From a virus (taxonomy: Duplodnaviria; Heunggongvirae; Uroviricota; Caudoviricetes): DNA of 64,000 bases. The position numbers were made by a program, and so were the translations under genes. The stretch lies in IMG/VR virus record IMGVR_UViG_2721755711_000002; one strand, 5' to 3'. The notes beneath the pieces are model-generated. The model was not told the DNA's origin. It did not search any database and saw only the letters and a list, made by a program, of their open reading frames with translations. This document shows positions 7,380-61,537 of this stretch, in pieces (the stretch's first letter is position 1; each line of letters starts with the position of its first letter).

Positions 7380-7788
7380 ACACATCCGCATGGCGATGAA
7401 TGCCTGGGCGCATCCAGACGGTGAAAAAGTTCCGGCAGCTGAAATAACCCAGGCTTATTTTGAGTTGGGGCTGACGTTTCCTGAACTGTACGACGACAGC
7501 CATCCGGAAGCCCTGGGCCGTAACACCCAGAAAATTTTCCGCTGGGTGAAGAAAGACACTCCTGATGCGGTTAAAAAAATTCAGGCGTTGTTACCAGCGA
7601 TCGAAAAAGCAATGCCGCCTCCGCTGGTGGCCCGAATGCGCAGCCACAGTTCCGCTTATTTTCGGGAGTTGGTAGAGACGAAGGAACGGCTGGTGAAAGA
7701 TATTGATGATTTCGTTGCATCAGCGATCGTTCTGTTCGATCAGATGAATCGTGGTGGCCCGGCAGGAAACACTCTGGCTGTGCATTAA
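7363..7788 (+). CDS. ydaT: YdaT-like protein (Rac prophage toxin family)
   Basis: 141-aa ORF starting MKIKHEHI as recalled for E. coli YdaT; position after Cro/YdaS-like gene. Confidence 0.5.
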   Translation: MKIKHEHIRMAMNAWAHPDGEKVPAAEITQAYFELGLTFPELYDDSHPEALGRNTQKIFRWVKKDTPDAVKKIQALLPAIEKAMPPPLVARMRSHSSAYFRELVETKERLVKDIDDFVASAIVLFDQMNRGGPAGNTLAVH

Positions 7789-7801
7789 TTGGGTAATAAA
7801 T

Positions 7802-8311
7802 ATGAGTAATGACAAAAAATTGACACTGAGCGTTTACGAAAACAGTCCGCACATCTGGCGTGGCGGTTTATCTGATATGGAGCTGGCAGAGTGGTTGATA
7901 CATAAAGCTAATGCGCTGCTCTGGCGTTTGTCAGCCAGAGAACAGCGCAAGGAAACCAGAATAAAGCTGGCTGATGCAGAAGCGTGTGCCGGGCTTATTG
8001 AGGATTATACAAATCTTGGTATTTCTTCAGCAGAGAGTGATCCCATTCAGCCTCTGAGCAGGGAGTCAATCCAGCACGCTGGTTGTATGGCACATCTTGT
8101 AACTGCTCGTCAACATGAGGTGGGTATTGGATCACTTCCGGTGGGATATTCGCTGATTCCAGAGCTGGTTGAAGCAAGAAAATCAGTTCAGAAAAAGAGA
8201 GATGACGCACTTCAATTATTGAGAGAGCACTATGGCGCGATACCAGAATGCGAACAGCGTCGATACCCTGAAGGTTATGAATGGATGCAGTCTCTTTTTG
8301 AAGTTCGCTAA
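7802..8311 (+). CDS. Hypothetical early protein
   Basis: 169-aa ORF from MSNDKK; a similar-length antisense ORF exists, so strand is uncertain. Confidence 0.35.
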   Translation: MSNDKKLTLSVYENSPHIWRGGLSDMELAEWLIHKANALLWRLSAREQRKETRIKLADAEACAGLIEDYTNLGISSAESDPIQPLSRESIQHAGCMAHLVTARQHEVGIGSLPVGYSLIPELVEARKSVQKKRDDALQLLREHYGAIPECEQRRYPEGYEWMQSLFEVR

Positions 8312-8528
8312 TCAATATGTCGAGACGAAGGTATGTTTCGGCGCGCAGCCAGGCTCTGTAATCCGGGAGCATTTCGGGGCTGTTACACCAGCGGTTTGTT
8401 GCTGCAACATTTAATACATGAGCCTGATAAAGGCTTTTCAAAAAATACATGTCGAACCTCCTCTGGTTCTGTCGATTGGGCACCACAGATTATATCCGGA
8501 GGAAGGTTCGGCACCAGATGAGGTAGCC

Positions 8529-9638
8529 ATGCGTGATTACGCAAAAGTTTCTCCGCGATTCTGGCTGGGAGAAACGGGGAGAGAACTTAGAAAGGCGGGT
8601 GCAGAAGCGCAAGTTGTTGCTTTTTACCTGATGACATCCCCTCACGCAAATATGCTGGGTTTGTATTACCTGCCAGTTTTATACCTTGCTCATGAAACCG
8701 GGCTTGGTCTGGAAGGGGCTTCAAAGGGGCTTAAAAGGGCTGTTGAAGCTGGTTTTTGTAGCTATGACCATGATGCCGAGATGGTCTGGGTCCATGAAAT
8801 GGCAGCCTGGCAGGTTGGGGAAACGTTGAAGCCTGGCGATAACCGTTGTGCAGGTGTCAGGAATGAGTATGCATCATTACCTGAAAACGCTTTTCTGTCA
8901 GCGTTTTATGACAGATATAAAACGGATTTCCATCTGGATGTGAGGCGGAATAATAGCCGAAATTCGGTAAGGGGCTTCGAAGGGGCTTTTAAGGGGCTTC
9001 GAAGCCAAGAACAGGAGCAGGAGAAAGAACAGGAACAGGACAAAAACACTATGGCTCATGGTGAAAAAAACACCACGAACCAGGCAGGGGATGTTCAGAC
9101 CGTAAATTCTGGTCAGCCAGCAGGCACGACACCGGAAGCCGATTCGGCGTATGCGCTGAAAGCCGATTCGGGCGCTGTGCAGCAGGTGATGACCGCAGGG
9201 TCGGAGCAATCACACCAACTGCAGCAGCCTGAAGCCGATTCCGCCATTCAGCGGGAAGCCGATCGGGTAGTCCCGGAAAACACCGGGCGGCCTGTGGGAC
9301 GAGTGGATTATCCGGATGTGTTCGAACAGGTCTGGCGGGAATACCCGTTGCGTGCCGGGGCAAACCCGAAGAAATCCGCATTCAGTGCCTGGAAGGCCAG
9401 ATTGCGCGAGGGGGTGCCACCAGAGACCATGCTGGATGGTGTGAGGCGTTACGCGAGATACCTGGCGGCGACCGGGAAAGCGGGAACGGAATTTGTTCAG
9501 CGAGCGACGACGTTTTTTGGACCGGACCGGAATTTTGAAAACCCCTGGTTGCTCCCGGTAAGCGGCACGAACAACCAGCGTTGTGTGAATCACATTTCTG
9601 AACCGGACACCGAAATTCCACCAGGGTTCAGGGGATAA
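8529..9638 (+). CDS. Phage replication protein (replisome organizer, O-like) with conserved phage C-terminal domain
   Basis: 369-aa ORF from MRDYAKVSPRFW with GAGG site; both termini resemble prophage replication initiators. Confidence 0.55.
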   Translation: MRDYAKVSPRFWLGETGRELRKAGAEAQVVAFYLMTSPHANMLGLYYLPVLYLAHETGLGLEGASKGLKRAVEAGFCSYDHDAEMVWVHEMAAWQVGETLKPGDNRCAGVRNEYASLPENAFLSAFYDRYKTDFHLDVRRNNSRNSVRGFEGAFKGLRSQEQEQEKEQEQDKNTMAHGEKNTTNQAGDVQTVNSGQPAGTTPEADSAYALKADSGAVQQVMTAGSEQSHQLQQPEADSAIQREADRVVPENTGRPVGRVDYPDVFEQVWREYPLRAGANPKKSAFSAWKARLREGVPPETMLDGVRRYARYLAATGKAGTEFVQRATTFFGPDRNFENPWLLPVSGTNNQRCVNHISEPDTEIPPGFRG

Positions 9639-18379: not shown

Positions 18380-19921
18380 ATGCCAACAGTTCCAATTTCT
18401 ATGAGAAAACTTAAAGAAATTCTTAGGCTTAAATACGGTGTTGGACTCAGCCATCGACAAATTGGTCGTAGTCTTGCAATCTCCCCTTCCGTTGTATCCA
18501 GATATGCTAATCGGGCGGCTCAACTTGGCATAAAGCAGTGGCCCTTACCTACAGGATGGGATGATACAAAACTAAAACATGCGTTCCTTCAGACCCAGGT
18601 TAAGATGAAGAAGCACTCTCTGCCTGACTGGGCTACAGTACACCGGGAACTGCGTAATAAATGCGTGACGCTGCAGCTACTCTGGGAAGAATACTGTGAG
18701 CGTAATCCAGGCGGTTTTTACAGCTATAACCATTACTGCCGGATGTACCGTGAATGGCTCAAAACCACTTCACCATCAATGCGTCAGGTACATAAAGCTG
18801 GCGAAAAACTTTTCGTTGATTACTGTGGACCTACCGTTGGCGTTACCGACCCTGAGACCGGAGAAATAAGAACTGCTCAGGTCATCGTAGCTGTTCTCGG
18901 GGCATCAAGTTACACATGGGCAGAGGCCACCTGGTCTCAGCAGCTTGAAGACTGGGTGATGAGTCATGTTCGCTGCTTCCAGTGGTTGGGTGGCGTTCCT
19001 GAACTTGTTGTTCCGGACAATCTGAAAAGCGCCACATCCAGGGCATGTAAGTATGATCCTGACGTTAACCCTACCTACCAGCAGATGCTTGAGCATTATA
19101 ATGTCGCAGTTTTGCCTGCGCGGCCACGTAAACCGAAAGATAAAGCCAAAGCTGAAGTTGGCGTTCAGGTTGTTGAACGCTGGATCATGGCCCGAATCAG
19201 GCATGAGATCTTCTACAGCCTTGCATCGCTTAATCAGCGCATTCGGGAGTTGCTGGAAAGACTGAATAACAAAATAATGCAGAAGTTGGGTTATTCACGT
19301 GCAGAACTCTTCATCCAGCTTGATAAACCCGCACTGAAGCCTCTTCCTGAAGCCAGTTACAGTTACACCCTGGTGAAGAAAGTCAGAGTTCATGCCGATT
19401 ACCACGTGGAAATCGACAAACATTACTACTCGGTTCCATGTTCGCTGTTAGGCCAGCAACTGGAAGCATGGATCTCCGGAGAACTGGTAAGACTCTTCAA
19501 TCAGGGGCAGGAGGTTGCTGTGCACCCGCGCAAGCGTACTTATGGCTACAGTACCCGCAACGAGCACATGCCTGAAGCTCATCGACAGCATGCCACCTGG
19601 ACGCCAGAGCGTCTTCTGGAATGGGCGGGGCACATAGGCAGTGAAACTCATAGTTATGTGCTTCATATACTGAACTCTCGTCCACATCCGGAACAAAGCT
19701 ATCGCTTCTGCCTTGGACTCCTGAACCTTCATAAAAAATACAGTAAAGCCAGACTTAATGCAGCATGTGCAAGAGCTCTGAAAACAAAGGTATGGCGTCT
19801 GTCAGGTATTAAATCGATCCTGGAAAAAGGTCTGGATAAACAACCTGTTCAGGATCCAAAACCAGATCTGTTATCCACGATGGAACACGAAAACGTACGC
19901 GGCAGTGAGTATTACCACTGA
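18380..19921 (+). CDS. istA: IS21-family transposase IstA
   Basis: 513-aa ORF with N-terminal HTH and DDE integrase-like core. Confidence 0.85.
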   Translation: MPTVPISMRKLKEILRLKYGVGLSHRQIGRSLAISPSVVSRYANRAAQLGIKQWPLPTGWDDTKLKHAFLQTQVKMKKHSLPDWATVHRELRNKCVTLQLLWEEYCERNPGGFYSYNHYCRMYREWLKTTSPSMRQVHKAGEKLFVDYCGPTVGVTDPETGEIRTAQVIVAVLGASSYTWAEATWSQQLEDWVMSHVRCFQWLGGVPELVVPDNLKSATSRACKYDPDVNPTYQQMLEHYNVAVLPARPRKPKDKAKAEVGVQVVERWIMARIRHEIFYSLASLNQRIRELLERLNNKIMQKLGYSRAELFIQLDKPALKPLPEASYSYTLVKKVRVHADYHVEIDKHYYSVPCSLLGQQLEAWISGELVRLFNQGQEVAVHPRKRTYGYSTRNEHMPEAHRQHATWTPERLLEWAGHIGSETHSYVLHILNSRPHPEQSYRFCLGLLNLHKKYSKARLNAACARALKTKVWRLSGIKSILEKGLDKQPVQDPKPDLLSTMEHENVRGSEYYH

Positions 19922-19932
19922 TACGGGATCCA

Positions 19933-20682
19933 ATGATGAATCATCTTTACGAACAACTGACCGCACTTAAACTCACCGGCTTCCGTGATGCGCTTAAAAA
20001 GCAACTTGCTCAGCCGGGCACATACCAGGAGCTGGGCTTCGAAGAACGCCTGTCATTACTGACAGCAGAAGAACTAACCTGCCGTGAAAACAGGAAGGCA
20101 GAGCGTCTGATCAAACATGCACGGTTCAGACTTAATGCTGAGTTATCAAAGCTGGATTATCGTAACAATAGAGGGCTGGACAGGGCCCTCATCCGTTCAC
20201 TCAGTCAGGGAAACTGGTTAACCCTGAAACAAAATATTTTACTGACCGGGGCCACCGGCAGCGGTAAAACGTTCCTGGCATGTGCACTTGGTCATAATGC
20301 CTGCCGACAGGGATACAAGGTCTACTATTATCGCCTTAAAGCGCTGATGGAACAGTGCTATCAGGGGCATGCTGATGGAAGATACAGCAAACTTTTGACC
20401 AGGCTGAATAATAGCGATCTGCTGCTTCTGGATGACTGGGGGCTGGAACCTCTCTCATCAGAACAGCGTAGCGACCTGCTGGAAATAGTGGATCTGATGT
20501 ACCAACGAGGCTCAATCATCGTAGTGAGCCAGTTGCCGGTGGAAAACTGGTACAAAATGATCGGAGACTCCACACATGCGGATGCCATCCTAGATCGACT
20601 GGTTCATGGCAGTATCAAGATCGAACTTAAAGGAGAATCAATGCGGAAAATACAATCTCCGTTGACCGAAGGAGATCAGTGA
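19933..20682 (+). CDS. istB: IS21-family helper ATPase IstB
   Basis: 249-aa ORF with Walker A LTGATGSGKT and Walker B LLLLDDWG. Confidence 0.9.
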   Translation: MMNHLYEQLTALKLTGFRDALKKQLAQPGTYQELGFEERLSLLTAEELTCRENRKAERLIKHARFRLNAELSKLDYRNNRGLDRALIRSLSQGNWLTLKQNILLTGATGSGKTFLACALGHNACRQGYKVYYYRLKALMEQCYQGHADGRYSKLLTRLNNSDLLLLDDWGLEPLSSEQRSDLLEIVDLMYQRGSIIVVSQLPVENWYKMIGDSTHADAILDRLVHGSIKIELKGESMRKIQSPLTEGDQ

Positions 20683-20836
20683 AGGTAATTTAAAAACGGT
20701 TCTGTGAAAGTGACACGAACCGATCTCCATCGATGTTACTCACCGATCTCCTTCACGGTAATACGCACATAATAAAAAAATCCAGAATAAAGCGCAAAAT
20801 AAGGTGATACAGCACTTTATTTGACCACTTACGTTT

Positions 20837-21403
20837 TTATTCACTGATGGGCAGACTTCTGATGGTGTTCAGGTCATCCAGCCCCGCCAGTGTTTCCTTC
20901 ATCTCCCGCTGACGGCGATAAATCTCGTCATTGCGATCGACCTGCGCCTGAACCATTGCAGTAAGCAGTTCATCCAGTTGTTGCATTGACAACTTTACCT
21001 GCTGATTTTCCGCATCACCCCATACCATAGTTTTCCGTGCCGTGACTGATTTTGCTGACATCACCACCGGATAAAGGCGGGCCATTGAATCCGGTCCCCC
21101 GTTCCAGCTATGACCGTTCCATTCAAAAATGAATGGCTGCGCCTCCTGCTCTGTACGCCATGCTTCAATTTCCCGGCGTTTGGCTGCTTTTGCTGCTTCC
21201 AGCATCTCTGACGTGACGGTGAACGGCGTTATTTCTCCCCACTTGCCGCTTTGCAGTTCCTGCCAGACTCGCTGCCCTGTCTCTGCTGTATCCGTGGCAG
21301 TTGCCGTATACGGAACCGGTTCATCCATGCCATCAAACAACACCCCACAGTCAATCGCGCCATTTTCAAGATAACGCGCATTTTCGATGCGTTTTATTTC
21401 CAT
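20837..21403 (-). CDS. Tail fibre assembly protein (Tfa-like chaperone)
   Basis: ~189-aa ORF from MEIKRIENARYLENG, directly after side tail fibre gene. Confidence 0.65.
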   Translation of the reverse strand: MEIKRIENARYLENGAIDCGVLFDGMDEPVPYTATATDTAETGQRVWQELQSGKWGEITPFTVTSEMLEAAKAAKRREIEAWRTEQEAQPFIFEWNGHSWNGGPDSMARLYPVVMSAKSVTARKTMVWGDAENQQVKLSMQQLDELLTAMVQAQVDRNDEIYRRQREMKETLAGLDDLNTIRSLPISE

Positions 21404-46161: not shown

Positions 46162-46344
46162 TCAGTTCTGCGAACACTGCCGGATGCCGTCAATAATCCG
46201 GCAGACCTTTGCCGCCGCGTCAAACAGCTGGCCCGCTCTGTTAATGTCTGTGCATCCCACCGGAAGCAACATCACCAGAAACAGGGCCAGAACACAGCGC
46301 GCGGCTTTACGTGGCGTTCTGTGGGTCCAGTGCTGACGCGTCAT
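46162..46344 (-). CDS. Small lipoprotein (possible o-spanin-like lysis component)
   Basis: 60-aa ORF with lipobox LLPVGC, start overlaps endolysin stop; paralogue at 59166-59348. Confidence 0.55.
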   Translation of the reverse strand: MTRQHWTHRTPRKAARCVLALFLVMLLPVGCTDINRAGQLFDAAAKVCRIIDGIRQCSQN

Positions 46345-46886
46345 ACCGCTACGCGCTCCTTCAGCCAGCCATAAACAAACGATTCGTTAGCCTCGCGTTT
46401 CTCTGCCAGTTCCAGATAGCGGTCACCCTGCGTGCAGTTCAGGGCTGTCAGCATCACCCGTTCGCCGTCCTGACCGCGATTATTCAGGAAGGCGCGCAAT
46501 GCGCTGATGGTACGAGGTCCGATGCGTCCGTCTGCGTCCATATCCGGGTACAGCCTGCCGCGCAGGTTGAAAACGTTCAGCCAGCGTTGGAGCATTTTTG
46601 ACGCCACGGATGGCCCCATATTCACACCGGTATCACACAGCTCTGCGGCAATATCAGGGGATAATGCCGCAACCTGATCAAATCGCGGGCCATACCAGTA
46701 ATCGGCTTCAAGGATGTCCAGCGCCTGTTCGCGGGTTAACTCACGCATATCGCCACGGTATCCGTGGGCACGGGCGACTTTTTCCGTAATGCCCCATTTG
46801 GTCGGGCCGCCCTTATCATCCGGGTGATTGACGTAACCGCCTTCTTTGCCCAGGACTTCATCAAAAATTTCATCTTTTGATTTCAT
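46341..46886 (-). CDS. Endolysin (glycoside hydrolase family 108-like muramidase with peptidoglycan-binding domain)
   Basis: 181-aa ORF with N-terminal EGGYVNHPDDKGGPTKWGIT motif. Confidence 0.75.
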   Translation of the reverse strand: MKSKDEIFDEVLGKEGGYVNHPDDKGGPTKWGITEKVARAHGYRGDMRELTREQALDILEADYWYGPRFDQVAALSPDIAAELCDTGVNMGPSVASKMLQRWLNVFNLRGRLYPDMDADGRIGPRTISALRAFLNNRGQDGERVMLTALNCTQGDRYLELAEKREANESFVYGWLKERVAV

Positions 46887-47172
46887 GTGGATGCCTCAGT
46901 AACGAAAGGATTTTTGACAAATTCCCGTGCGCCCACACGATAAGCGCACAGAAAACCAGATTCAGCGCCACAACCAGCCAGCTGGAGTGCGTGTATGTAC
47001 CGGACAGCCAGCGGAACGGGATGATGATGTAGCCGAGCATCAGCCAGTACGCCAGCCAGGTAATCATCGGTTTATGCGCCGCACCGTGGCGGCGATACAC
47101 AAACAACCCCAGCACAATGGCGAGGCACAGCCAGACGTTCACGATACCGGCAAGGCTACTTTCCATTTCCAC
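46870..47172 (-). CDS. Lysis-associated multi-pass membrane protein (holin/antiholin candidate)
   Basis: 100-aa ORF with hydrophobic helices between holin-like gene and endolysin. Confidence 0.45.
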   Translation of the reverse strand: MEMESSLAGIVNVWLCLAIVLGLFVYRRHGAAHKPMITWLAYWLMLGYIIIPFRWLSGTYTHSSWLVVALNLVFCALIVWAHGNLSKILSLLRHPHEIKR

Positions 47173-47548
47173 CCCCTCCGCCGCGCAGTCTGGAAAACAG
47201 GCCGAACAGCGATGAAATTTCCTGTTGATAAAGAAAAGTCAGTATCTTGATGGATAAAGCAGAGACACCGACCGCACACAATGCATCGAGCGGTTTGTCG
47301 TTATAGTGGGTCAGCCACTGCATCAGTGACGCAGCCACGCCAGCCCCCAGAACGCCAACCACAAACGCGACGAGCAGGTGAATAGCCATTCGCCATACCG
47401 GGATTTCTTTCTGCTGAGTGACAACAAAAAGCGCCCCGGCAAACGCGCCCACCACGACCCCGAAATCGGTATTGGTGAGAAGGCCAAACACACTGGCACC
47501 ACCGATGGTGACTGCCACAGCTCCGCCGCCTGATAAGGGTTCAGACAT
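47156..47548 (-). CDS. Holin-like membrane protein
   Basis: 131-aa ORF, Gly/Ala-rich helices; homologue of the truncated gene at 17956; upstream region also similar. Confidence 0.5.
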   Translation of the reverse strand: MSEPLSGGGAVAVTIGGASVFGLLTNTDFGVVVGAFAGALFVVTQQKEIPVWRMAIHLLVAFVVGVLGAGVAASLMQWLTHYNDKPLDALCAVGVSALSIKILTFLYQQEISSLFGLFSRLRGGGGGNGK

Positions 47549-55082: not shown

Positions 55083-57125
55083 TTAACGATTATTTGTGCC
55101 GTTTTTCTTTAAATTGCGCTCACGGTCAGACACGAATAAATAAAGTTCTTCTTTTTCCTTTTTCTCCTGGCGTTCCAGTCCATATCCCAGATTAAACTCA
55201 GGTTTCTGCGTAATAGCCGGGGTAAGTTCGCGTTTAGCCTCTTCGATTTTCTGCGTGGCCCGTGCAATGCGGCCTCGGGCGCGTTTCTCCTGCTGCTGTT
55301 CGATAACGGCTTTCGGGAACGCATCGACCTTGTTACCGTTCCAGATGGCATCGCAGATATAAGAACCGTCCATTCGCCTGACAATCACGCTGTTTGCGTC
55401 GTGAATGTCGTAACAAACCCTGACTTCATTTCCGTGCTCTGCTGCCAGTTCTGTGGAGAAATAGATGTTTCTGAATAACACCACTTCACCGCGTCGCACC
55501 GTGCAGATGCTTTCCGGTCGGAACATTTCATGCAGTTCTTCCGGCGACAGCATGTCGATTTCAGCCTTTTGCTCTTTTATCAGTTTCCGGCGATACGCTG
55601 CCGGGCTGTAATGTTCGCCATCCTCTTTGCGGGGAAGGCTGCTGTGTGGTCGGTTGTTATACCGTTTCACCTCCAGCTCTATTGCGGCCAGCAGTTGCTC
55701 AAAGGTGGGGACTTCTCCCATCGCTTTAACCTGCCGTTTTGTCAGCTCTTTCCCTTTGTGGGTGGCCTTAATGGCTGACTGTGTGATGCGTTGCTGCATC
55801 ATCACCGTTTCCTTGTCTGCATTTTTTGAGCAGTACGTCTGGAAACTCAGGGCCACATCTTTGGGTATTCCTTTGTTTGCCCGTTCTATTACCCCGCGCC
55901 CCTGCGGGTTACCAGGTATCCCCGTGTGATGCTCCACACCCAGTCGGGGCAGAATCCCGGTAATATCGGCATCAAGCACCCGGTTTTTTTCACCGCCCCC
56001 GTTATCGGAGTAATAAATCAGCGGTATTCCGTGTTGTGACATGCCATGACGCAATGCATCAGCAACGGCTATCACGTTCTCCGACAGGGACAGCGACCAG
56101 CCCACAATAAAGCGTTGCCCCGCATCCATAACCAGCGTCACTTCTGGCCGGAATGTATTCCCGGTGGCGGGGCTGAATGCCATCAGTTTCATACAGTGAC
56201 CATCCCCGACCCATACCGCATTAACCGGTAATGTGCTCCAGTCGCGCCGCACAAAGGGATTGAGCGAACGCCAGGCTGAACCGGTGGAGCGGAAACGCTC
56301 CTTCACAATCACCGGGACGTTGCTTAACACCCGTCTTACTGCGTGAACTGAAGGCAGTGCTGCCAGCATTCCTGCGTCATTCGCGTGCTTTTCATGCCAC
56401 CAGGCTGAAAACTCGCGATACGCATATTCAACGGTCGGGCGCTTCCATGAGCGATAGAACATAAAGAAATCGCTCAACCACCAGACCTGCTCCCACGGTG
56501 TTCCCTTATGATGACCGGGAGCCAGTAACGCCAGTAACTGATTGGCATCACCGCGCGCCATCAACCAGGCGGAATACCATTCCTGCAAACTTCCCCAACT
56601 GACGCCAGTTCGCTTACCCTGTCTGGCGTTTGCAGTGCCTGCGGCCTCAATAATGCGGTCAGGTAACGCCCCCATGCGCACACCATCAATGATGTGTTTT
56701 ACTGCTGCCGTCCTGGACATTCCTGCGTATTCACGCAGTTTATGCACTTCGGTAGCCAGCAATATCCGCGCATCAGCGATGGCCTTTTGCTTGTCGGTCA
56801 GTGCCTGAACTTCGCGTAATGCCAGTTCCGGGCATTTGACCATCACTTCCAGTTCATCGCGAACGGTGACGTTTTTAACTGCCTTCTGCTCAACCACGGC
56901 GGGCAGTTGCGCATCTTCCAGAACCTGATGAGTCAGGCGCTTACGTAAAACTTTCTGCGCTTCAGTGGGCAGGCAGTCGATGTGATACTCGAATGCTTTG
57001 GTGCCTTCACGCTTGCGCTTCCATTCCGGGTGCGTCTCTGTGATCCGATTGAGCGTCCAGCGCACCCCCTGAACTGTACCGGGCAAACCAGGAAGACCGG
57101 CCAGCTCATTGGCTGAATAAAACAT
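55083..57125 (-). CDS. A: Mu-type DDE transposase A
   Basis: 680-aa ORF; N-terminus ANELAGLPGLPGT resembles MuA; ner-A-B order. Confidence 0.9.
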   Translation of the reverse strand: MFYSANELAGLPGLPGTVQGVRWTLNRITETHPEWKRKREGTKAFEYHIDCLPTEAQKVLRKRLTHQVLEDAQLPAVVEQKAVKNVTVRDELEVMVKCPELALREVQALTDKQKAIADARILLATEVHKLREYAGMSRTAAVKHIIDGVRMGALPDRIIEAAGTANARQGKRTGVSWGSLQEWYSAWLMARGDANQLLALLAPGHHKGTPWEQVWWLSDFFMFYRSWKRPTVEYAYREFSAWWHEKHANDAGMLAALPSVHAVRRVLSNVPVIVKERFRSTGSAWRSLNPFVRRDWSTLPVNAVWVGDGHCMKLMAFSPATGNTFRPEVTLVMDAGQRFIVGWSLSLSENVIAVADALRHGMSQHGIPLIYYSDNGGGEKNRVLDADITGILPRLGVEHHTGIPGNPQGRGVIERANKGIPKDVALSFQTYCSKNADKETVMMQQRITQSAIKATHKGKELTKRQVKAMGEVPTFEQLLAAIELEVKRYNNRPHSSLPRKEDGEHYSPAAYRRKLIKEQKAEIDMLSPEELHEMFRPESICTVRRGEVVLFRNIYFSTELAAEHGNEVRVCYDIHDANSVIVRRMDGSYICDAIWNGNKVDAFPKAVIEQQQEKRARGRIARATQKIEEAKRELTPAITQKPEFNLGYGLERQEKKEKEELYLFVSDRERNLKKNGTNNR

Positions 57126-57361
57126 TACGCCGCCTTACTGGCATACCGGCTTGGCCAGATCTCCGCAGGTTCCACACCAATAGCATCGGCTATGATGCGT
57201 TCATATTTAGGGCATGAGCGATACAGTGCATTTTTTAAAGAGTCTTTTTTTAGACCAGCGCGTTCAGAAAGTTCACGCAATGTAAAACCTTTGGTGTGCA
57301 CAGCGGCAACGATGTACTCGCGGTGCCAGTCTTTGTTCATTACTTCATTTCTAACCATCAT
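57125..57361 (-). CDS. ner: Ner-like DNA-binding regulator
   Basis: ~79-aa ORF with DWHREY and IWPSRY motifs shared with Mu Ner/Nlp. Confidence 0.8.
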   Translation of the reverse strand: MMVRNEVMNKDWHREYIVAAVHTKGFTLRELSERAGLKKDSLKNALYRSCPKYERIIADAIGVEPAEIWPSRYASKAA

Positions 57362-57543
57362 TAGGTTACCCTTAAAAGTTATCCGTGCGGATAACACCGC
57401 CGTGTTATCCCTTCGGATATAAGTATTGATCCATATGTAACCCATGTAAAGCAAAAATAGCCTTTTCTTTGTATTTTCTTTTTGCTTTTGGTCTTTATAT
57501 GGTTTTGTGATTGAAAATCAATTGGTTAAATAGGAAAGGAAAA
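57362..57543. promoter_or_regulatory. Divergent c/ner operator-promoter region
   Basis: AT-rich intergenic region with repeated CTTTT motifs between divergent ner and c genes. Confidence 0.4.
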
Positions 57544-58191
57544 ATGACAAAAAATGATGACGCTTTTTCTTTAGTTGACCGAGGAAAAGAAAGTTTTAGA
57601 GAGCGTTTAGTAAAACTAATAGGTGGGCGCAGTGTCAGAACTGCCGCGAGCGACTGGGGTATCCCTCCTTCAACCTTAAACAACTACATCCATAAAGGAA
57701 CAGAACCCTCTTTTAAAATAGCCTGCCTTATCTCAGATAAAGAGCGGGTGAGTTTAAATTGGCTCGCTTATGGTGAGGAACTCACCGCCACAGCAAACTC
57801 TTTATCAAACCAAACAGCGCAGCCTTCTCCCGATATTACAAACGAGCTAGCTAACGAGTTATTGAAAAGAGCGTCCACAGAAGATAAAGAACTATTGATA
57901 AATGCAATATGTGATATGGGTATCAAAGGAATCCTAAAACGTCTGCAACAACCCACTAGGCAAGCGAAACAAGCCGCTAACACGCTGGAGGAGCAAGAGA
58001 ATGCTATCCAAAGTCTGAATATCAGGAAATCACTTAAGGATGCAATCCGAGTAGCATTACATGGAAACGAAGATACTGACAGAGAGATTTTGCGAATTGT
58101 TGAATCTCATATACGACCACAATCGCCGGGTGATCAGACCGATGTCACACCGGAGCAAGAAACAAAATCTGTAAGTAAAAAATCAGCATGA
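57544..58191 (+). CDS. c: Mu-type repressor c
   Basis: 216-aa ORF divergent from ner with AGGAAAGGA site; N-terminal DNA-binding-like region. Confidence 0.7.
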   Translation: MTKNDDAFSLVDRGKESFRERLVKLIGGRSVRTAASDWGIPPSTLNNYIHKGTEPSFKIACLISDKERVSLNWLAYGEELTATANSLSNQTAQPSPDITNELANELLKRASTEDKELLINAICDMGIKGILKRLQQPTRQAKQAANTLEEQENAIQSLNIRKSLKDAIRVALHGNEDTDREILRIVESHIRPQSPGDQTDVTPEQETKSVSKKSA

Positions 58192-58465
58192 ACGCCTCGT
58201 TTTGGCGGGGCGCATGCTGCTAACTAATCAGCAACAACCACATCAAAACAAAACCAAACAGGAAAAATAAGGAAACGGGTACAGATAAAGCCCGTTTTAA
58301 AAGCATTTAAAACACGATCAATTATCTGCCATTAATGATTAAAACAGTCCAGATTTGAGCGCAAAAAAATGTACTTTTGATCATTTTCTTCAAAACGATC
58401 CAGAATCGGTAAAATCTCTCACATCCTGCGCCACTCAAGGCTTATAGGCTCGTCCAGGCTGTTCT

Positions 58466-58496
58466 CACTCAGTCCAGAATTGATCACTACCCCACA
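58466..58496. other. Candidate Mu-like prophage left terminus (approximate)
   Basis: Repeated ATCCAGAAT-like motifs at 58341-58360, 58388-58409, 58466-58486; possible end ...TGATCA at 58486; expected distance from c gene. Confidence 0.2.
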
Positions 58497-58755
58497 GGTA
58501 ACAGAAGACGGTCGTCATGTTGAGGAAGTGCATGTCCTGGGGGATATGTACCGCCTGGAGTTCTATCCGCGTAACACTCATCTTGCAGCGAAGATTGAGT
58601 ATTGCCGGGACGGGAATATTCCGTGCATTCCTGTAGAAAAAGAGGATGAAGCCTACATCATCACACTGAACGGTGACACGGCGCGTTGTATCTGTCGTGG
58701 CGACAGTGAAGCCCGGAATGAAATAGCAAGATGTCGCGCCCATACAGATAAATAA
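58480..58755 (+). CDS. Hypothetical Cys-containing small protein; 5' end uncertain, possibly a gene remnant
   Basis: 91-codon ORF (TTG in track; internal ATG at MYRLEF) with own terminator. Confidence 0.35.
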   Translation: MITTPQVTEDGRHVEEVHVLGDMYRLEFYPRNTHLAAKIEYCRDGNIPCIPVEKEDEAYIITLNGDTARCICRGDSEARNEIARCRAHTDK

Positions 58756-58763
58756 AAAGCAAA

Positions 58764-58800
58764 AACCCCGGCTGCGGGAACAGTTCGGGGTTTTCTGTTT
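58764..58800 (+). terminator. Rho-independent terminator
   Basis: Stem AACCCCG/CGGGGTT followed by TTTTCTGTTT. Confidence 0.5.
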
Positions 58801-58826
58801 CTGACCTTGAGTAAGCAAGGGAGAAC

Positions 58827-59009
58827 ATGGAGAAGTATAAACGAATTCTGTTTAGGTTGACTATGAAAAACGGCCTTGAATTGAAAGCGCCTGTAACTGA
58901 TGACATCAGCAGAGCGGTGGCTTTTGCCATTAAGTGGGTGGCTGTCGGTATCGCTGTGTCTCCGATTCTGTATGGGATGGCAAAATTGATCATTGCTGTG
59001 AAATCGTAA
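58827..59009 (+). CDS. Small membrane protein
   Basis: 60-aa ORF with C-terminal hydrophobic helix; GGGAG site upstream. Confidence 0.35.
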   Translation: MEKYKRILFRLTMKNGLELKAPVTDDISRAVAFAIKWVAVGIAVSPILYGMAKLIIAVKS

Positions 59010-59026
59010 GTGGGGCAGGGGTAAAT

Positions 59027-59161
59027 ATGTCAGATAGCATTATAAAACTGGCGCGAATTCTCTGTGTGGTTGTTGGCCTTTCATTTTCAGCAATGTTGGT
59101 TGCCATTTTCATTTCCACCGCCTGGCGAGTATTGAGCTTATCCGGATTGATTGGTGGATAG
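59027..59161 (+). CDS. Small hydrophobic peptide (44 aa)
   Basis: Short ORF MSDSIIKLARILCVVVGLSF... directly upstream of lipoprotein gene. Confidence 0.25.
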   Translation: MSDSIIKLARILCVVVGLSFSAMLVAIFISTAWRVLSLSGLIGG

Positions 59162-59165
59162 TGAG

Positions 59166-59348
59166 ATGAAGCGAAAACACTGGACACACAGAATGCCGCG
59201 AACGGCGGCGAAATGGGTACTGGTAGCGATACTGGTGCCTTTTTTCCTGGTGGGATGCGTCAGCCTGGATAAGGCGCGCCAGCTTTTCGATACGGCTTCT
59301 CAGGTCTGCGAAATTGTCGACGGTGTTCGACAGTGTCTGCAGAGCTGA
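59166..59348 (+). CDS. Small lipoprotein, paralogue of 46162-46344
   Basis: 60-aa ORF; lipobox FLVGC; mature-part motifs QLFD.A..VC.I.DG.RQC shared with paralogue. Confidence 0.55.
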   Translation: MKRKHWTHRMPRTAAKWVLVAILVPFFLVGCVSLDKARQLFDTASQVCEIVDGVRQCLQS

Positions 59349-59510
59349 TCGCCCGTAAGAGCAGAATATTTTGCTGAAAAATGAAGGATGTGTCAGCGTC
59401 CGGAAAGCATGAAATTCTGCTGCGTGTACCAATTTTATCTTATTCATTCTAAATCTTGCCGAATCAAGCAACTGCCCGGGCGGCAAGGGGTATTTTTATC
59501 CGGAGGGGAT

Positions 59511-59735
59511 ATGAAGAGATTACTGGTAACCGTAAAGCCCTTTAACGGAACGATTCCATTCAGGGTTTTGCAGCGTGGACGTGTTCTGGTTAAGGATATC
59601 TTCAGTGGTAAATGCACGGAATGTTATTCCCGGACATATGAAGTGGATGCCACGGATGAAGAAATTTCTGTTGAATGTGATCTGAACGCGAATATGGCGG
59701 GGATTGTAACAGCCACGTTGTTGCCGGTTTCATGA
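59511..59735 (+). CDS. Hypothetical protein
   Basis: 74-aa ORF with GGAGGGG site. Confidence 0.4.
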   Translation: MKRLLVTVKPFNGTIPFRVLQRGRVLVKDIFSGKCTECYSRTYEVDATDEEISVECDLNANMAGIVTATLLPVS

Positions 59736-59775
59736 ATGACATAGAATGTCTCCGGGTACCCAAAAGGAGAACACT

Positions 59776-59991
59776 ATGTTTGTAGAAAATAACCTGAAGG
59801 CTGATCCTGATAATCAGGGATGGGTTCTGGGTTGGGCTGTAGTACGTGACAAACCGTGGCATCTGGTCGGTATTTATGCGACGGAGGATGGCGCAAAGTC
59901 TAAACGCTCTGAATTGAATGGGGAGTATGAAGTTCGTTATGGTTCCCATCGTTTAGGTAGTGATGATTTTATGTCTGTCGGACTTAGCTAA
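59776..59991 (+). CDS. Hypothetical protein
   Basis: 71-aa ORF followed by terminator. Confidence 0.4.
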   Translation: MFVENNLKADPDNQGWVLGWAVVRDKPWHLVGIYATEDGAKSKRSELNGEYEVRYGSHRLGSDDFMSVGLS

Positions 59992-60012
59992 CTGGCTGTG
60001 ATGCCTGTTTGT

Positions 60013-60038
60013 AGCCCCGCAAATGCGGGGCTTTTTAT
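60013..60038 (+). terminator. Rho-independent terminator
   Basis: Stem AGCCCCGC/GCGGGGCT, loop AAAT, then TTTTT. Confidence 0.6.
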
Positions 60039-60052
60039 ATTTGGAGACGATA

Positions 60053-60445
60053 ATGAAAAAAACAGAAAATAAACCGGTTGCAATTGGTGCCGCTGTTGTT
60101 CCGTTTAAGTTTGAGTTGTCTCAACTGGTGGAGATGCGCATCAGTGATGAATGGGGTGAGGTTAAAGCCCGCGCGCAGTATGCGGATGGCGAAAACCAGT
60201 ACTTGATCCACTACAAGGCTGCTGATGGTCGCGCCACAACGGCGTGGTTTGGTGAGTCAATGCTGGAAGCAACAGAAGATGATCGCCATCCGGGCTGTCC
60301 GGTATTTGCCGGTATGAAATTACCGGAAGGCGCAGTTGAACTGCAGCCGGGTGAGGTGTTCGTAATGTCAGAAGTCATTGATGGCAAACCGCAGTATTCA
60401 CGTATTGAAACTAACGGCAAGGACGTTTGTCTGGTTCGCAAGTAA
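60053..60445 (+). CDS. Hypothetical protein
   Basis: 130-aa ORF with GGAG site; followed by hairpin GCAGCCCTT-CAGTG-AAGGGCTGC. Confidence 0.5.
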   Translation: MKKTENKPVAIGAAVVPFKFELSQLVEMRISDEWGEVKARAQYADGENQYLIHYKAADGRATTAWFGESMLEATEDDRHPGCPVFAGMKLPEGAVELQPGEVFVMSEVIDGKPQYSRIETNGKDVCLVRK

Positions 60446-60650
60446 CTTGCATTACAGCAGCCCTTCAGTGAAGGGCTGCGATAATGTGAGAAATAAAAAA
60501 CCGGTCACAGGGAGCAGCTACACAGAACCGGCCGGCGAAGACCGCCAATACCACCCATGCTTCAGTAAAACATGCATATGACATTAGCTGGTATTGATGT
60601 AAATGCAATGTTACGCATCGACAAAAATAAAAAACCGGCAGGGGAAATCC

Positions 60651-60875
60651 ATGGAAGATTTGCCGGTGGCAAAAGTTGCCAATGCTTTTATAACCGTAGT
60701 CGCAGAGTTGCGGAGTGCAACTACGAATGCTGCAGGTATATGGCTGAATGGCGTTTCAATGATGTACGTCATCTTATCTGTAAATGTTAATGATAAACGC
60801 TCCCATTTGTGCGGGTCCTTTCCGGGAGTTGAAACACCGGGGGTCATGGGACGCGCAAAAACGCGCTATTTATGA
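60651..60875 (+). CDS. Questionable small ORF overlapping the cos region
   Basis: 74-aa ORF running into cos-like sequence; may not be translated. Confidence 0.2.
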   Translation: MEDLPVAKVANAFITVVAELRSATTNAAGIWLNGVSMMYVILSVNVNDKRSHLCGSFPGVETPGVMGRAKTRYL

Positions 60876-60960
60876 AAATTTTTCGAGTTCCACTTCCGGT
60901 TTTTTAATTATCTAACCAATTGATTAGATTGTTTTTAGTTATCAAGAAAACCGGAAGTCC
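60840..60960. other. Lambda-like cohesive end site (cosN/cosB region)
   Basis: CGCTATTTATGAAAATTTTT closely matches sequence next to the lambda left cohesive end; ~170 bp upstream of Nu1; inverted ACTTCCGGTTTT / AAAACCGGAAGT. Confidence 0.45.
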
Positions 60961-61027
60961 GACCAGTTTGTGGGAAAATAGCGGCAAAAACGGAGTTGAG
61001 TGTAAAGTGAACAGCTAAAGAGGGTGT

Positions 61028-61537
61028 ATGGCAACGCAGGCGGAGGTAGCCGAGCATCTTGGTATAACTGAACGCTGGTTGCGGGATCTTCAGAAGCACC
61101 CGGGAGCGCCAAAAAATCGAAAGCGTGGTGAATACGATATTGATGCCTGGCGATATTTTTATATTTCATACCTTAAACGCAAAGGAAGAAGCGATACTGA
61201 TGACGATGGAAATAGCGATTACGAAGAAAAATTACTTATCGCCAGATGGAAATTGACTGAAGAACAGGCAATAGCACAGCAATTAAAAAATCAGGTAACC
61301 GAAGGCAAGCTCATTGATTCTGGGTTCTGCGTTTTCGCTCTCAGCAAACTGGCGATGGCATTGTCCAGTACGCTTGATTCCATTCCTTTATCCATGCAGC
61401 GACAGTTCCCGGATTTAACCCCGCGTCATATCGATTATCTGAAAACCCTTATCGCAAAAGGCGCGAATCAGTGTGCGCGGACAGGGGATAAATTGCCGGA
61501 GTTACTCGATGAATATATCCGAACTACAGCTGAATAA
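61028..61537 (+). CDS. nu1: Terminase small subunit (lambda Nu1-like)
   Basis: 169-aa ORF; central region aligns with lambda Nu1 (FC.F.LS..A...S.LD..PLS.QR.FP.L..RH.D.LK). Confidence 0.8.
   Translation: MATQAEVAEHLGITERWLRDLQKHPGAPKNRKRGEYDIDAWRYFYISYLKRKGRSDTDDDGNSDYEEKLLIARWKLTEEQAIAQQLKNQVTEGKLIDSGFCVFALSKLAMALSSTLDSIPLSMQRQFPDLTPRHIDYLKTLIAKGANQCARTGDKLPELLDEYIRTTAE

What the first reader, a model, noticed from the sequence alone, without database searches (positions are those of the whole stretch)
58480..60480. Block of small terminator-bounded genes between the Mu-like end and cos
Seven short plus-strand ORFs, several with their own hairpin terminators, include a lipoprotein and two small membrane peptides but no endolysin. 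This is where a lambdoid phage carries lysis and post-lysis accessory genes, so these may be remnants of the disrupted lysis cassette or lysogenic-conversion morons.
Basis: seen in the sequence. Interest (0 to 1): 0.35.

Follow-up and report, generated by a model that had tools for sequence, protein, structure and literature searches.

The report
Beheaded phage lysis region with orphan lipoprotein
The seven small genes are real, conserved phage genes: the leftover tail end of a lambda-like prophage's lysis region whose holin and endolysin were lost to an IS element and a Mu-like prophage. One of them, a 60-residue lipoprotein, sits where the outer-membrane lysis genes (Rz/Rz1) normally are but has no partner gene.

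Summary
Window 58480-60480 carries seven plus-strand ORFs (91, 60, 44, 60, 74, 71, 130 aa). All belong to PHROG families of unknown function and all are under purifying selection (pN/pS 0.04-0.37). Stable hairpins follow O1, O6 and O7. There is no endolysin.

The block is the last ~2.3 kb before cos of a phiP27/E. coli R1-type lambdoid prophage. In intact relatives it follows holin-holin-endolysin. Here an ISEc12 element plus a Mu-like prophage replace the 3' part of holin 1, holin 2, the endolysin and the first 8 codons of O1.

O4 (59166-59348) is the constant fourth gene of this cassette and is a lipoprotein. It was present in 65 of 73 assessable holin loci, often about 14 nt after the endolysin gene. 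It lies in the slot that Rz/Rz1 occupies in other phages, and the two were never found together. No conserved i-spanin partner was found. The Mu-like prophage in this window carries its own copy, overlapping its endolysin stop codon.

O1-O3 and O5-O7 are optional accessory genes, present in 12-51% of loci.

The most likely role of O4 is the outer-membrane step of lysis; this is inferred, not shown. Interest is moderate.

The parts
17956..18222 (+). 5' remnant of holin 1 (Phage_holin_8) of the lambdoid prophage, cut by ISEc12
   Evidence: Pfam PF16931 E 2e-16 and PHROG 198 holin. Homology to R1 L001 7249-7667 stops at 18221/18222.
18222..20769 (+). ISEc12 (IS21 family: istA 18380-19921, istB 19933-20682), lying between the holin stump and the Mu-like prophage
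   Evidence: ORFs. The right end is defined by 100%-identical copies in many E. coli genomes that all stop at window 20767-20769.
46162..46344 (-). O4', the paralogous 60-aa lipoprotein of the Mu-like prophage. Its start overlaps the stop of that prophage's GH108 endolysin (46341-46886). Holin 2 (46870-47172) and holin 1 (47156-47548) lie upstream.
   Evidence: ORFs. 55% identity to O4. PHROG 7528 E 7e-43. The cassette is 71% identical at DNA level to the R1 lambdoid cassette.
58192..58496 (.). Left end of the Mu-like prophage, downstream of its repressor gene c (57511-58191), ending ...CCCCACA
   Evidence: Related Mu-like prophages in other E. coli genomes lose homology at window 58495-58497 and have unrelated flanks. 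Lambdoid homology starts at 58497.
58497..58755 (+). O1, 5'-truncated (codons 9-93 of a 93-aa protein; PHROG 33497). The start codon and ribosome-binding site are lost.
   Evidence: Intact R1 homologue begins MYALKKITVTEDG...; the window reads (TTG)ITTPQVTEDG.... pN/pS 0.20.
58757..58800 (+). Hairpin with U-tract after O1 (terminator-like)
   Evidence: -20.7 kcal/mol, z = -3.4.
58827..59009 (+). O2, 60 aa: basic N-terminal half plus a C-terminal hydrophobic segment (PHROG 1115). Optional gene lying between endolysin and O4 or Rz.
   Evidence: Present in 38 of 75 O4 loci. Lies between R and Rz in PhiR12_3. pN/pS 0.37.
59027..59161 (+). O3, 44-aa single-pass membrane peptide (PHROG 4906). Its stop is 4 nt before the O4 start.
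   Evidence: Present in 19 of 75 O4 loci. Immediately precedes Rz in PhiR12_3 and PPyecE_EH1910. pN/pS 0.24.
59166..59348 (+). O4, 60-aa prolipoprotein (lipobox LVGC31; mature 30 aa; invariant C48 and C57; PHROG 7528). Core fourth gene of the holin-holin-endolysin cassette, in the spanin slot.
   Evidence: pN/pS 0.25 over 72 distinct sequences.
59511..59735 (+). O5, 74 aa (PHROG 2571). Optional; directly follows Rz in Stx phages.
   Evidence: Present in 11 of 69 loci. pN/pS 0.30.
59776..59991 (+). O6, 71 aa (PHROG 4280). Optional.
   Evidence: Present in 8 of 69 loci. pN/pS 0.04.
60013..60032 (+). Intrinsic-terminator-like hairpin with U-tract after O6
   Evidence: 8-bp stem with 7 G-C pairs plus TTTTTATATTT. 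-17.9 kcal/mol.
60053..60445 (+). O7, 130 aa (PHROG 1935): conserved ~95-aa N-terminal domain plus a variable C-terminal tail. Optional.
   Evidence: Present in 34 of 69 loci. pN/pS 0.36. The structure model failed.
60446..60490 (+). Long hairpin after O7, without a U-tract
   Evidence: -28.3 kcal/mol, z = -7.4.
60842..60881 (.). cos-like site. The position equivalent to cosN is followed by CGCTATTTATGAAAATTTT, identical to lambda bases 23-41.
   Evidence: Alignment with the lambda left end and R1. The phage cdtI record ends 17 bp beyond the equivalent of window 60825. Nu1 starts at 61028.

Best explanation
The block is the promoter-distal end of the late operon of a phiP27/E. coli-R1-type lambdoid prophage, running from the lysis genes to cos.

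In intact relatives the order is Q ... holin 1, holin 2, endolysin (GH108 or M15), then optional small genes, the O4 lipoprotein, more optional small genes, cos, and Nu1/A. Here a Mu-like phage transposed into codon 8 of O1. An ISEc12-associated rearrangement then removed everything from the middle of holin 1 to the start of O1. The seven ORFs are therefore cut off from the late promoter and from their holin and endolysin.

Shown:
- O4 is the one constant gene of the block.
- It is a Sec/LspA-type prolipoprotein by sequence, with a 30-residue mature part carrying two invariant cysteines.
- It is inherited together with holin-holin-endolysin in both lambdoid and Mu-like phages.
- It is usually spaced for translational coupling to the endolysin gene.
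- It lies exactly where Rz/Rz1 lies in other cassettes, and was never found with Rz/Rz1.

Inferred:
- O4 is made late, lipidated and sorted to the outer membrane (residue +2 is V, T, A, S or G, never Asp).
- It carries out or triggers outer-membrane disruption once the endolysin has removed the peptidoglycan.
- It does this without a dedicated inner-membrane partner.

O2 and O3 are optional small inner-membrane peptides that ride at the endolysin/spanin junction, possibly as lysis modulators. O1, O5, O6 and O7 are optional accessory genes bounded by hairpins, of unknown role.
For: Architecture. The window matches the R1 prophage at 17804-18222 and 58497-60885. R1 7667-9004 (rest of holin 1, holin 2, GH108 endolysin, O1 codons 1-8) is missing. 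The ISEc12 and Mu-like ends are defined by copies elsewhere in E. coli. cos is placed by alignment with lambda.

Real genes. PHROG hits and pN/pS 0.04-0.37.

O4 as a core gene. All 80 IMG/VR loci found with O4 show, wherever the contig reaches far enough upstream, holin 1, holin 2 and an M15 or GH108 endolysin before O4. None has Rz.
- In 27 loci O4 lies about 14 nt after M15; in one it overlaps GH108 by 4 nt.
- Searching from holin 1 instead, 65 of 80 loci carry O4. Seven of the other 15 are contigs that end too soon. One (L159) has Rz with embedded Rz1 in the same place.
- The Mu-like prophage in this window has holin 1, holin 2, GH108 and O4' with an ATGA overlap.

Slot equivalence. In Stx-type phages O3 precedes Rz and O5 follows it. 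Here O3, O4 and O5 are in that order.

No partner. No type-II membrane ORF lies between endolysin and terminase in the O4 loci, or anywhere from holin 1 to 2.5 kb past O4 in 21 minimal loci.

Literature. Rz is reported in 277 of 279 Stx phages and the M15 endolysin pham in 2 (PMC8136144).

Family features. Lipobox, invariant C48 and C57. A low-confidence model places the two cysteines opposite each other in a beta-hairpin.
Against: There is no experimental or expression evidence for any of the seven genes.

A 30-residue mature lipoprotein cannot span the periplasm, and it is helical and proline-free, unlike lambda Rz1 (PMC6139136 supplement). The mechanism is therefore unknown.

Seven holin loci with room for O4 have neither O4 nor Rz. 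The gene may be dispensable, or those prophages may be defective.

The IMG/VR loci are mostly E. coli prophages and are not phylogenetically independent. The two locus sets also share contigs.

The conserved, unusually long and basic signal-peptide n-region (KRKHWTHRxPRTAAKW) is unexplained.

Kongari et al. 2018 list phiP27 as having a separated two-component spanin, so a partner has been proposed before.
Confidence: 0.6

Rival explanations
1. O4 is an ordinary o-spanin of a separated two-component spanin, whose i-spanin is a small membrane protein encoded nearby. Candidates are the 64-aa ORF listed for phiP27 by Kongari et al., or O2 or O3.
For: The supplement of PMC6139136 lists PhiP27 as 'sep', with the i-spanin at 20348-20542 and the o-spanin at 20706-20861. 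The latter is O4 read from Met10, with a mature length of 30 aa. O2 and O3 are membrane peptides directly upstream of O4, and O3 stops 4 nt before the O4 start.
Against: The phiP27 'i-spanin' ORF starts with TTG, has no PHROG family, and lies antisense to a 90-aa ORF that does match one (phrog_36812, E 5e-20). It recurs in only about 4 of 80 O4 loci.

O2 is absent from 49% of O4 loci and O3 from 75%. Both also occur next to a genuine Rz.

Twenty-one minimal loci have no type-II membrane ORF at all.

The periplasmic tails of O3 (about 14 aa) and mature O4 (30 aa) are too short to bridge the periplasm (inference).
Confidence: 0.12
2. O4, and perhaps O2 and O3, are not lysis genes. On this view they are accessory exclusion or receptor-masking proteins like T5 Llp, phi80/N15 Cor or lambda Bor, or lysogenic-conversion morons.
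For: O4 is a small outer-membrane-type lipoprotein with a conserved cysteine pair, as described for Llp (recalled from the literature, not tested). This region of lambdoid genomes is a known moron site: bor lies after Rz in lambda. Hairpins bound several of the ORFs. Presence and absence are variable for O1-O3 and O5-O7.
Against: O4 has no promoter-like site of its own. It is about 14 nt from, or overlapping, the endolysin gene.

It travels with the lysis cassette in both a lambdoid and a Mu-like prophage, whose other genes are unrelated in the window. A receptor-specific function would be expected to follow the tail genes instead.

It was never found together with Rz/Rz1. It gave no hit in PADLOC, Pfam or NCBIfam.
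Confidence: 0.18
3. The small ORFs are chance reading frames or decayed remnants with no function.
For: There is no Pfam, NCBIfam or PDB match. In this window they are cut off from the late promoter, and O1 is truncated.
Against: All seven match PHROG families. pN/pS is 0.04-0.37. O4 occurs in 356 of 5,426 complete E. coli genomes. Shine-Dalgarno-like motifs precede O2 to O7.
Confidence: 0.03

Closest known systems
Lambda Rz1 and other o-spanins (two-component spanins, Kongari et al. 2018, PMC6139136)
   Same: A small lipoprotein of 60-aa precursor length, as in lambda Rz1. It is encoded in the lysis cassette just after the endolysin, has periplasmic cysteines, and lies in the same syntenic slot between O3-like and O5-like genes. 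O4 of phiP27 is already listed there as an o-spanin.
   Different: It has no conserved i-spanin gene and is not embedded in or overlapping one. It is proline-free and predicted to be helical plus a beta-hairpin, rather than proline-rich and unstructured. The mature part is only 30 aa. It has no sequence match to the Pfam Rz1 family.
Unimolecular spanin T1 gp11
   Same: A single gene product with a lipoprotein signal that does the outer-membrane step alone.
   Different: gp11 is about 130 aa with a C-terminal transmembrane anchor that reaches the inner membrane. O4 has no second anchor and is far too short.
phiKT gp28 'disruptin' (bioRxiv 10.1101/515445)
   Same: A small, spanin-replacing lysis protein in a phage that lacks Rz/Rz1. 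It shows that single small proteins can do the outer-membrane step.
   Different: gp28 is a cationic amphipathic peptide without a lipobox. Mature O4 is roughly neutral (net charge -1 to +1) and is predicted to be lipid-anchored.
Colicin lysis proteins (BRPs) and entericidin B, both small bacteriolytic lipoproteins (recalled from the literature)
   Same: Mature lipoproteins of about 27-33 residues that damage the envelope. In BRPs the signal peptide itself has a role, which may be relevant to the conserved n-region of O4.
   Different: There is no sequence match (Pfam). The genetic context differs: colicin operons and the chromosomal ecnAB locus, rather than a phage lysis cassette.
Small lysis co-factors: LambdaSo Lcc6 (bioRxiv 10.1101/2024.01.23.576932) and Mu gp25 releasin (PMC9239132)
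   Same: Precedents for small membrane proteins in or near lysis cassettes being required for lysis. This is a possible analogy for O2 and O3.
   Different: O2 and O3 are optional across related cassettes.
Lambdoid morons such as bor, downstream of Rz
   Same: O1, O5-O6 and O7 are variably present small units bounded by hairpins, located between lysis genes and cos.
   Different: No promoter was detected, GC content does not clearly deviate, and no lysogen phenotype is known.

Membership tests
Two-component spanin, o-spanin component | N-terminal lipoprotein signal with a lipobox cysteine | tested here: met
   L-[VA]-G-C31 is conserved in 15 aligned family members after a basic n-region and a hydrophobic core. 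Lipidation itself was not shown.
Two-component spanin, o-spanin component | Encoded in the lysis cassette next to the endolysin | tested here: met
   In all O4 loci whose contig reaches upstream, O4 follows holin-holin-endolysin. In 27 loci it lies about 14 nt after the endolysin, and in 2 cases it overlaps it.
Two-component spanin, o-spanin component | A cognate i-spanin gene (type-II inner-membrane protein with a periplasmic coiled-coil) embedded in, overlapping or adjacent to it | tested here: not met
   No such ORF lies between endolysin and terminase in the 80 loci, nor in 21 minimal loci scanned from holin 1 to 2.5 kb past O4. The published phiP27 candidate looks spurious.
Two-component spanin, o-spanin component | Sequence membership of a described o-spanin family (for example Pfam Rz1) | tested here: not met
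   No Pfam or NCBIfam hit at E up to 0.1. PHROG 7528 is 'unknown function'.
Two-component spanin, o-spanin component | Periplasmic cysteine(s) able to form disulfides | tested here: met
   C48 and C57 are invariant. Whether a disulfide forms, and whether it is intra- or intermolecular, was not tested.
Unimolecular spanin (T1 gp11 type) | Lipoprotein signal plus a C-terminal transmembrane domain in one chain | tested here: not met
   Mature O4 is 30 hydrophilic or amphipathic residues, with no C-terminal hydrophobic segment.
Colicin lysis protein / entericidin families | Match to the Pfam family profiles for these proteins | tested here: not met
   No hit in Pfam-A at E up to 0.1. The resemblance is in size and lipidation only.
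Moron (autonomous accessory unit in a phage late operon) | Variable presence between otherwise collinear relatives | tested here: met
   O1 in 10 of 75 loci, O2 in 38 of 75, O3 in 19 of 75, O5 in 11 of 69, O6 in 8 of 69, O7 in 34 of 69.
Moron (autonomous accessory unit in a phage late operon) | Own promoter and own terminator | tested here: inconclusive
   Hairpins follow O1, O6 and O7. No plus-strand sigma-70-like promoter was found, but the scan is a simple consensus match.
Moron (autonomous accessory unit in a phage late operon) | Expression in the lysogen and a host phenotype | not testable with these tools
   Needs transcript or phenotype data.
Anti-phage defence systems (PADLOC) | Match to a known defence protein model | tested here: not met
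   No hits for O1 to O7 or for the neighbouring Cys-rich ORF.

The most novel reading that the evidence does not exclude
The O4 family (PHROG 7528) is a stand-alone outer-membrane-disrupting lysis lipoprotein. On this reading a 30-residue, disulfide-stapled lipopeptide replaces the Rz/Rz1 spanin complex in holin-holin-endolysin cassettes shared by phiP27-type lambdoid and Mu-like enterobacterial phages, without any periplasm-spanning partner. That would be a third solution to the last step of Gram-negative lysis, beside spanins and the cationic disruptin.
Probability: 0.35. Interest if true: 0.65.

Novelty: new variant of a known kind. Interest (0 to 1): 0.42.

Why it matters
As a block, this is ordinary prophage wreckage: the tail of a late operon cut off by a transposable phage and an IS element.

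The part worth keeping is O4. About 13% of phages of Gram-negative hosts have no recognisable spanin (PMC6139136), and only one alternative has been characterised: the phiKT disruptin.

O4 is a compact, conserved candidate for another alternative. It is present in 356 of 5,426 complete E. coli genomes and in the inducible Stx2e phage phiP27. The lambda Rz-am Rz1-am complementation assay could test it directly.

The analysis also suggests that the published phiP27 'i-spanin' assignment is probably an artefact.

Tried and rejected
1. Target-site duplication. I first read TCACGGTAA at 20753-20761 as the O1 side of a Mu 5-bp duplication (GGTAA). One search showed that the sequence lies inside the ISEc12 end, which is 100% identical in many genomes up to 20767-20769, so the 9-nt match is chance. 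The Mu-like right terminus appears to be missing.

2. Structure of O7. A 21-sequence alignment gave mean pLDDT 47, so no fold search was run.

3. Structure of O4. Mean pLDDT was 67, used only as a weak hint about the cysteine pair.

4. Database searches that gave nothing: PDB sequence searches for O7 and O1, PADLOC, Pfam, NCBIfam. Rfam returned only sub-threshold noise, and there are no tRNAs.

5. The genome-contig scan for holin 1 returned a single locus and was useless for context.

6. The three large protein searches (O4, O7, O2) returned only 'hypothetical protein' or 'lipoprotein' names.

7. A profile search with O4 against 1.84 billion representatives found only 20 clusters, so no distant, better-characterised relatives emerged.

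8. Searching the window for the lambda cosN 12-mer gave only chance-level matches. cos was placed by alignment instead.
Full report
**1. The observation**

Window 58480-60480 holds seven plus-strand ORFs:

| ORF | Coordinates | Length | Notes |
|---|---|---|---|
| O1 | 58480-58755 | 91 aa | 5'-truncated (section 2) |
| O2 | 58827-59009 | 60 aa | C-terminal hydrophobic segment |
| O3 | 59027-59161 | 44 aa | one hydrophobic segment |
| O4 | 59166-59348 | 60 aa | lipobox LVGC31 |
| O5 | 59511-59735 | 74 aa | |
| O6 | 59776-59991 | 71 aa | |
| O7 | 60053-60445 | 130 aa | |

- None matches Pfam, NCBIfam, PADLOC or a solved structure.
- Each matches a PHROG family of unknown function at E 1e-19 to 1e-66.
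- Pooled pairwise pN/pS in the proposed frames is 0.20, 0.37, 0.24, 0.25, 0.30, 0.04 and 0.36 for O1 to O7.
- O2 to O7 each have a Shine-Dalgarno-like motif upstream (sequence).
- Stable hairpins follow three ORFs. After O1: -20.7 kcal/mol, with a U-tract. After O6: -17.9 kcal/mol, with a U-tract, also found by the terminator scan. After O7: -28.3 kcal/mol, without a U-tract.

The description is therefore accurate. These are real genes, not chance frames.

**2. Where the block sits**

The closest intact relative is a lambdoid prophage of E. coli R1 (L001). Its gene order is:

Q, DNA methylase, tRNA, holin 1 (Phage_holin_8), holin 2, GH108 endolysin, an unannotated Cys-rich 68-aa ORF, O1 to O7, terminase Nu1/A.

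The window matches R1 at 17804-18222 (holin 1, 5' part) and again at 58497-60885. R1 7667-9004 is missing. That stretch holds the rest of holin 1, holin 2, the endolysin, the Cys-rich ORF and O1 codons 1-8.

Two elements fill the gap:
- **ISEc12.** Its right end is fixed at 20767-20769 by 100%-identical copies elsewhere in E. coli.
- **A reversed Mu-like prophage.** It has transposase A at 55083-57125, ner at 57125-57454 and repressor c at 57511-58191. Related Mu-like prophages lose homology at 58495-58497 and have unrelated flanks, which fixes its left end at 58496.

Consequences:
- O1 here lacks its ATG and ribosome-binding site. The listed TTG start lies in Mu-like DNA.
- On the other side, the lambda left end aligns at about 60842-60881, with CGCTATTTATGAAAATTTT identical. 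The block is therefore the last ~2.3 kb before cos, and Nu1 starts at 61028.
- No plus-strand promoter-like site lies in 58100-61100.
- The Mu-like c gene reads towards the block and ends in a hairpin without a U-tract. Whether the block is transcribed here is unknown.

**3. What the genes are, judged from context**

*O4 as the query.* I fetched 80 IMG/VR loci carrying O4 and mapped marker proteins onto them.
- Wherever the contig reaches upstream, the order is holin 1, holin 2, an M15 or GH108 endolysin, then O4. Of the 75 loci with an endolysin upstream, 45 have M15 and 30 have GH108.
- None has Rz.
- In 27 loci O4 lies about 14 nt after the M15 gene. In one it overlaps GH108 by 4 nt.

The other six ORFs are optional:

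| ORF | Present in |
|---|---|
| O1 | 10 of 75 loci |
| O2 | 38 of 75 |
| O3 | 19 of 75 |
| O5 | 11 of 69 |
| O6 | 8 of 69 |
| O7 | 34 of 69 |

*Holin 1 as the query.* Of 80 loci, 65 contain O4. Seven of the other 15 are contigs that end within about 1.3 kb. One (L159) has Rz with an embedded Rz1 in the same position. Seven have neither.

*Stx-type phages with S/R cassettes.*
- In PhiR12_3, O2 and O3 lie between R and Rz.
- In PPyecE_EH1910, O3 precedes Rz.
- In Stx2_EH2201 and PPyecE_EH1910, O5 directly follows Rz.

In the window the order is O3, O4, O5. O4 therefore occupies exactly the Rz/Rz1 slot.

*A second copy in the same window.* The Mu-like prophage carries the same four-gene module. 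It has holin 1 (47156-47548), holin 2 (46870-47172), GH108 (46341-46886) and a 60-aa O4 paralogue (46162-46344). The paralogue is 55% identical to O4, and its ATG overlaps the endolysin stop codon.

The module has therefore moved as a unit between two unrelated phage types. That argues that O4 works with the lysis genes rather than with a particular tail or receptor.

**4. The O4 family**
- Fifteen aligned members share a basic n-region (KRKHWTHRxPRTAAKW), a hydrophobic core, the lipobox L-[VA]-G-C, and a 30-residue mature part with invariant C48 and C57.
- Residue +2 is never Asp. By the standard Lol sorting rule this points to the outer membrane.
- The mature part is proline-free and amphipathic (maximum hydrophobic moment about 0.5, net charge -1 to +1).
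- A low-confidence AlphaFold model (pLDDT 67) gives a helix followed by a beta-hairpin, with C48 and C57 in cross-strand register.
- The family is narrow. A profile search of 1.84 billion representatives found 20 clusters, all enterobacterial where named.
- It is frequent in E. coli: 356 of 5,426 complete genomes, 551 copies, always 'hypothetical' or unannotated.
- Among isolated phages it occurs only in phiP27, phiSTEC1575-Stx2k and vB_Apl-pPE4.

**5. Is there an i-spanin?**

Kongari et al. 2018 list PhiP27 with a 'separated' two-component spanin (PMC6139136 supplement). The o-spanin, at 20706-20861, is O4 read from Met10. The i-spanin is a 64-aa ORF at 20348-20542.

That i-spanin call looks doubtful:
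- The ORF starts with TTG and has no PHROG family.
- It lies antisense to a 90-aa ORF that does match one (phrog_36812, E 5e-20).
- It recurs in only about 4 of the 80 O4 loci.

Clustering all unassigned plus-strand ORFs between endolysin and terminase gave only ParB-like, HNH and small-terminase genes plus noise. Scanning 21 minimal loci from holin 1 to 2.5 kb past O4 found no type-II membrane protein with a periplasmic domain. The Mu-like prophage has none next to its cassette either.

O2 and O3 cannot be obligate partners. They are absent from 49% and 75% of O4 loci and also occur beside a genuine Rz.

**6. Most likely mechanism**

*Shown:* the architecture, conservation and coding constraint of the block; the linkage of O4 to the endolysin gene; O4 and Rz/Rz1 never co-occurring; the absence of a partner gene.

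*Inferred:* O4 is expressed late with the endolysin, lipidated and sent to the outer membrane. It acts at the outer-membrane step of lysis without spanning the periplasm. It may act as a membrane-active lipopeptide, in the manner of colicin lysis proteins or entericidin B, or through a host protein.

I put about 0.5 on a lysis role for O4, and about 0.35 on the stronger claim that it is a stand-alone disruptor.

*Rivals:*
- A cryptic two-component spanin (0.12).
- An exclusion or conversion lipoprotein like Llp, Cor or Bor (0.18). The lack of a promoter, the coupling to the endolysin and the co-transfer with the cassette all argue against this.
- Non-functional ORFs (0.03).

For O2 and O3 the best guess is optional lysis modulators in the inner membrane. 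Precedents are Lcc6 of LambdaSo (10.1101/2024.01.23.576932) and Mu gp25 (PMC9239132). For O1, O5, O6 and O7 I can only say that they are optional, hairpin-bounded accessory genes of the lysis-to-cos region. O7 has a conserved ~95-aa N-terminal domain and a swappable C-terminal tail.

**7. Comparison with known systems, and verdict**

As a block this is an ordinary, already-understood kind of thing: the lysis-distal accessory region of a lambdoid prophage, here beheaded by mobile elements.

O4 works like an o-spanin in position and chemistry. It fails the defining test of having an i-spanin partner, and it matches no described spanin family. I therefore file it as a new variant of a known kind, not as a member.

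Its existence as a putative phiP27 o-spanin is already in the literature. New here are:
- its status as the conserved fourth gene of a cassette shared by lambdoid and Mu-like phages;
- the finding that it never co-occurs with Rz/Rz1;
- the likely spuriousness of its published partner.

Interest is moderate (0.42). It gives a cheap, direct experiment on the open question of how spanin-less coliphages breach the outer membrane. Nothing about function has been demonstrated.

Noticed in passing
window 46162-47548 (minus strand): The Mu-like prophage uses a holin-holin-GH108-lipoprotein lysis cassette about 71% identical in DNA to that of the R1-type lambdoid prophage. This differs from the endolysin/gp23/gp23a arrangement described for Mu in PMC9239132. 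The window therefore holds two O4 paralogues.
   Followed up: yes
window 18222-20769 and about 20770-20836: ISEc12 (IS21 family) abuts the Mu-like right side directly. The sequence after the IS (TAATAAAAAAATCC...) does not start with the usual Mu-type 5'-TG, and only one TCCAGAAT-like repeat is left. The Mu-like right terminus is probably deleted, and the prophage is probably unable to transpose.
   Followed up: partly
window 20753-20761: TCACGGTAA matches O1 codons 7-9 of the R1 relative and looked like a Mu target-site duplication. It lies inside the conserved ISEc12 end, so it is a chance match.
   Followed up: yes
L002 (phiP27) 4670-4864, plus strand, versus 4654-4926, minus strand: The ORF listed as the phiP27 i-spanin in the Kongari et al. 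2018 supplement overlaps, antisense, a 90-aa ORF with a PHROG match. It is not conserved among O4 loci and is probably a mis-call.
   Followed up: yes
window 16213-17778: Between the Q-like gene (15403-16098) and the holin stump lie a 159-aa ORF and a 306-aa ORF that looks like an AraC-type regulator by eye. This is the position where Stx phages carry stx. Neither ORF was analysed.
   Followed up: no
L001 8695-8901 (E. coli R1) and 9 of 69 O4 loci downstream of O4: An unannotated 68-aa Cys-rich ORF (PHROG 4298, ...CYWCCRDCHTS) lies upstream of O1 in some prophages and downstream of O4 in others. It behaves like a small mobile accessory gene.
   Followed up: partly
window 60842-60853: The position equivalent to cosN reads GGTCATGGGACG-like rather than the lambda GGGCGGCGACCT, although the adjacent 19 bp are identical to lambda. 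R1 is closer to lambda here. The cohesive-end sequence of this prophage may differ or may have decayed.
   Followed up: partly
O4 residues 2-17 (window 59169-59216) and all family members: The n-region of the signal peptide is unusually long, basic and conserved (KRKHWTHRxPRTAAKW). Signal-peptide n-regions are normally free to vary. No overlapping gene explains the conservation in the lambdoid copies.
   Followed up: no
L159 6466-7072: This is the one holin-holin-M15 cassette that carries Rz with embedded Rz1 instead of O4. A different 45-aa membrane peptide (PHROG 6632) sits directly before its Rz, in the same position that O3 holds elsewhere.
   Followed up: partly
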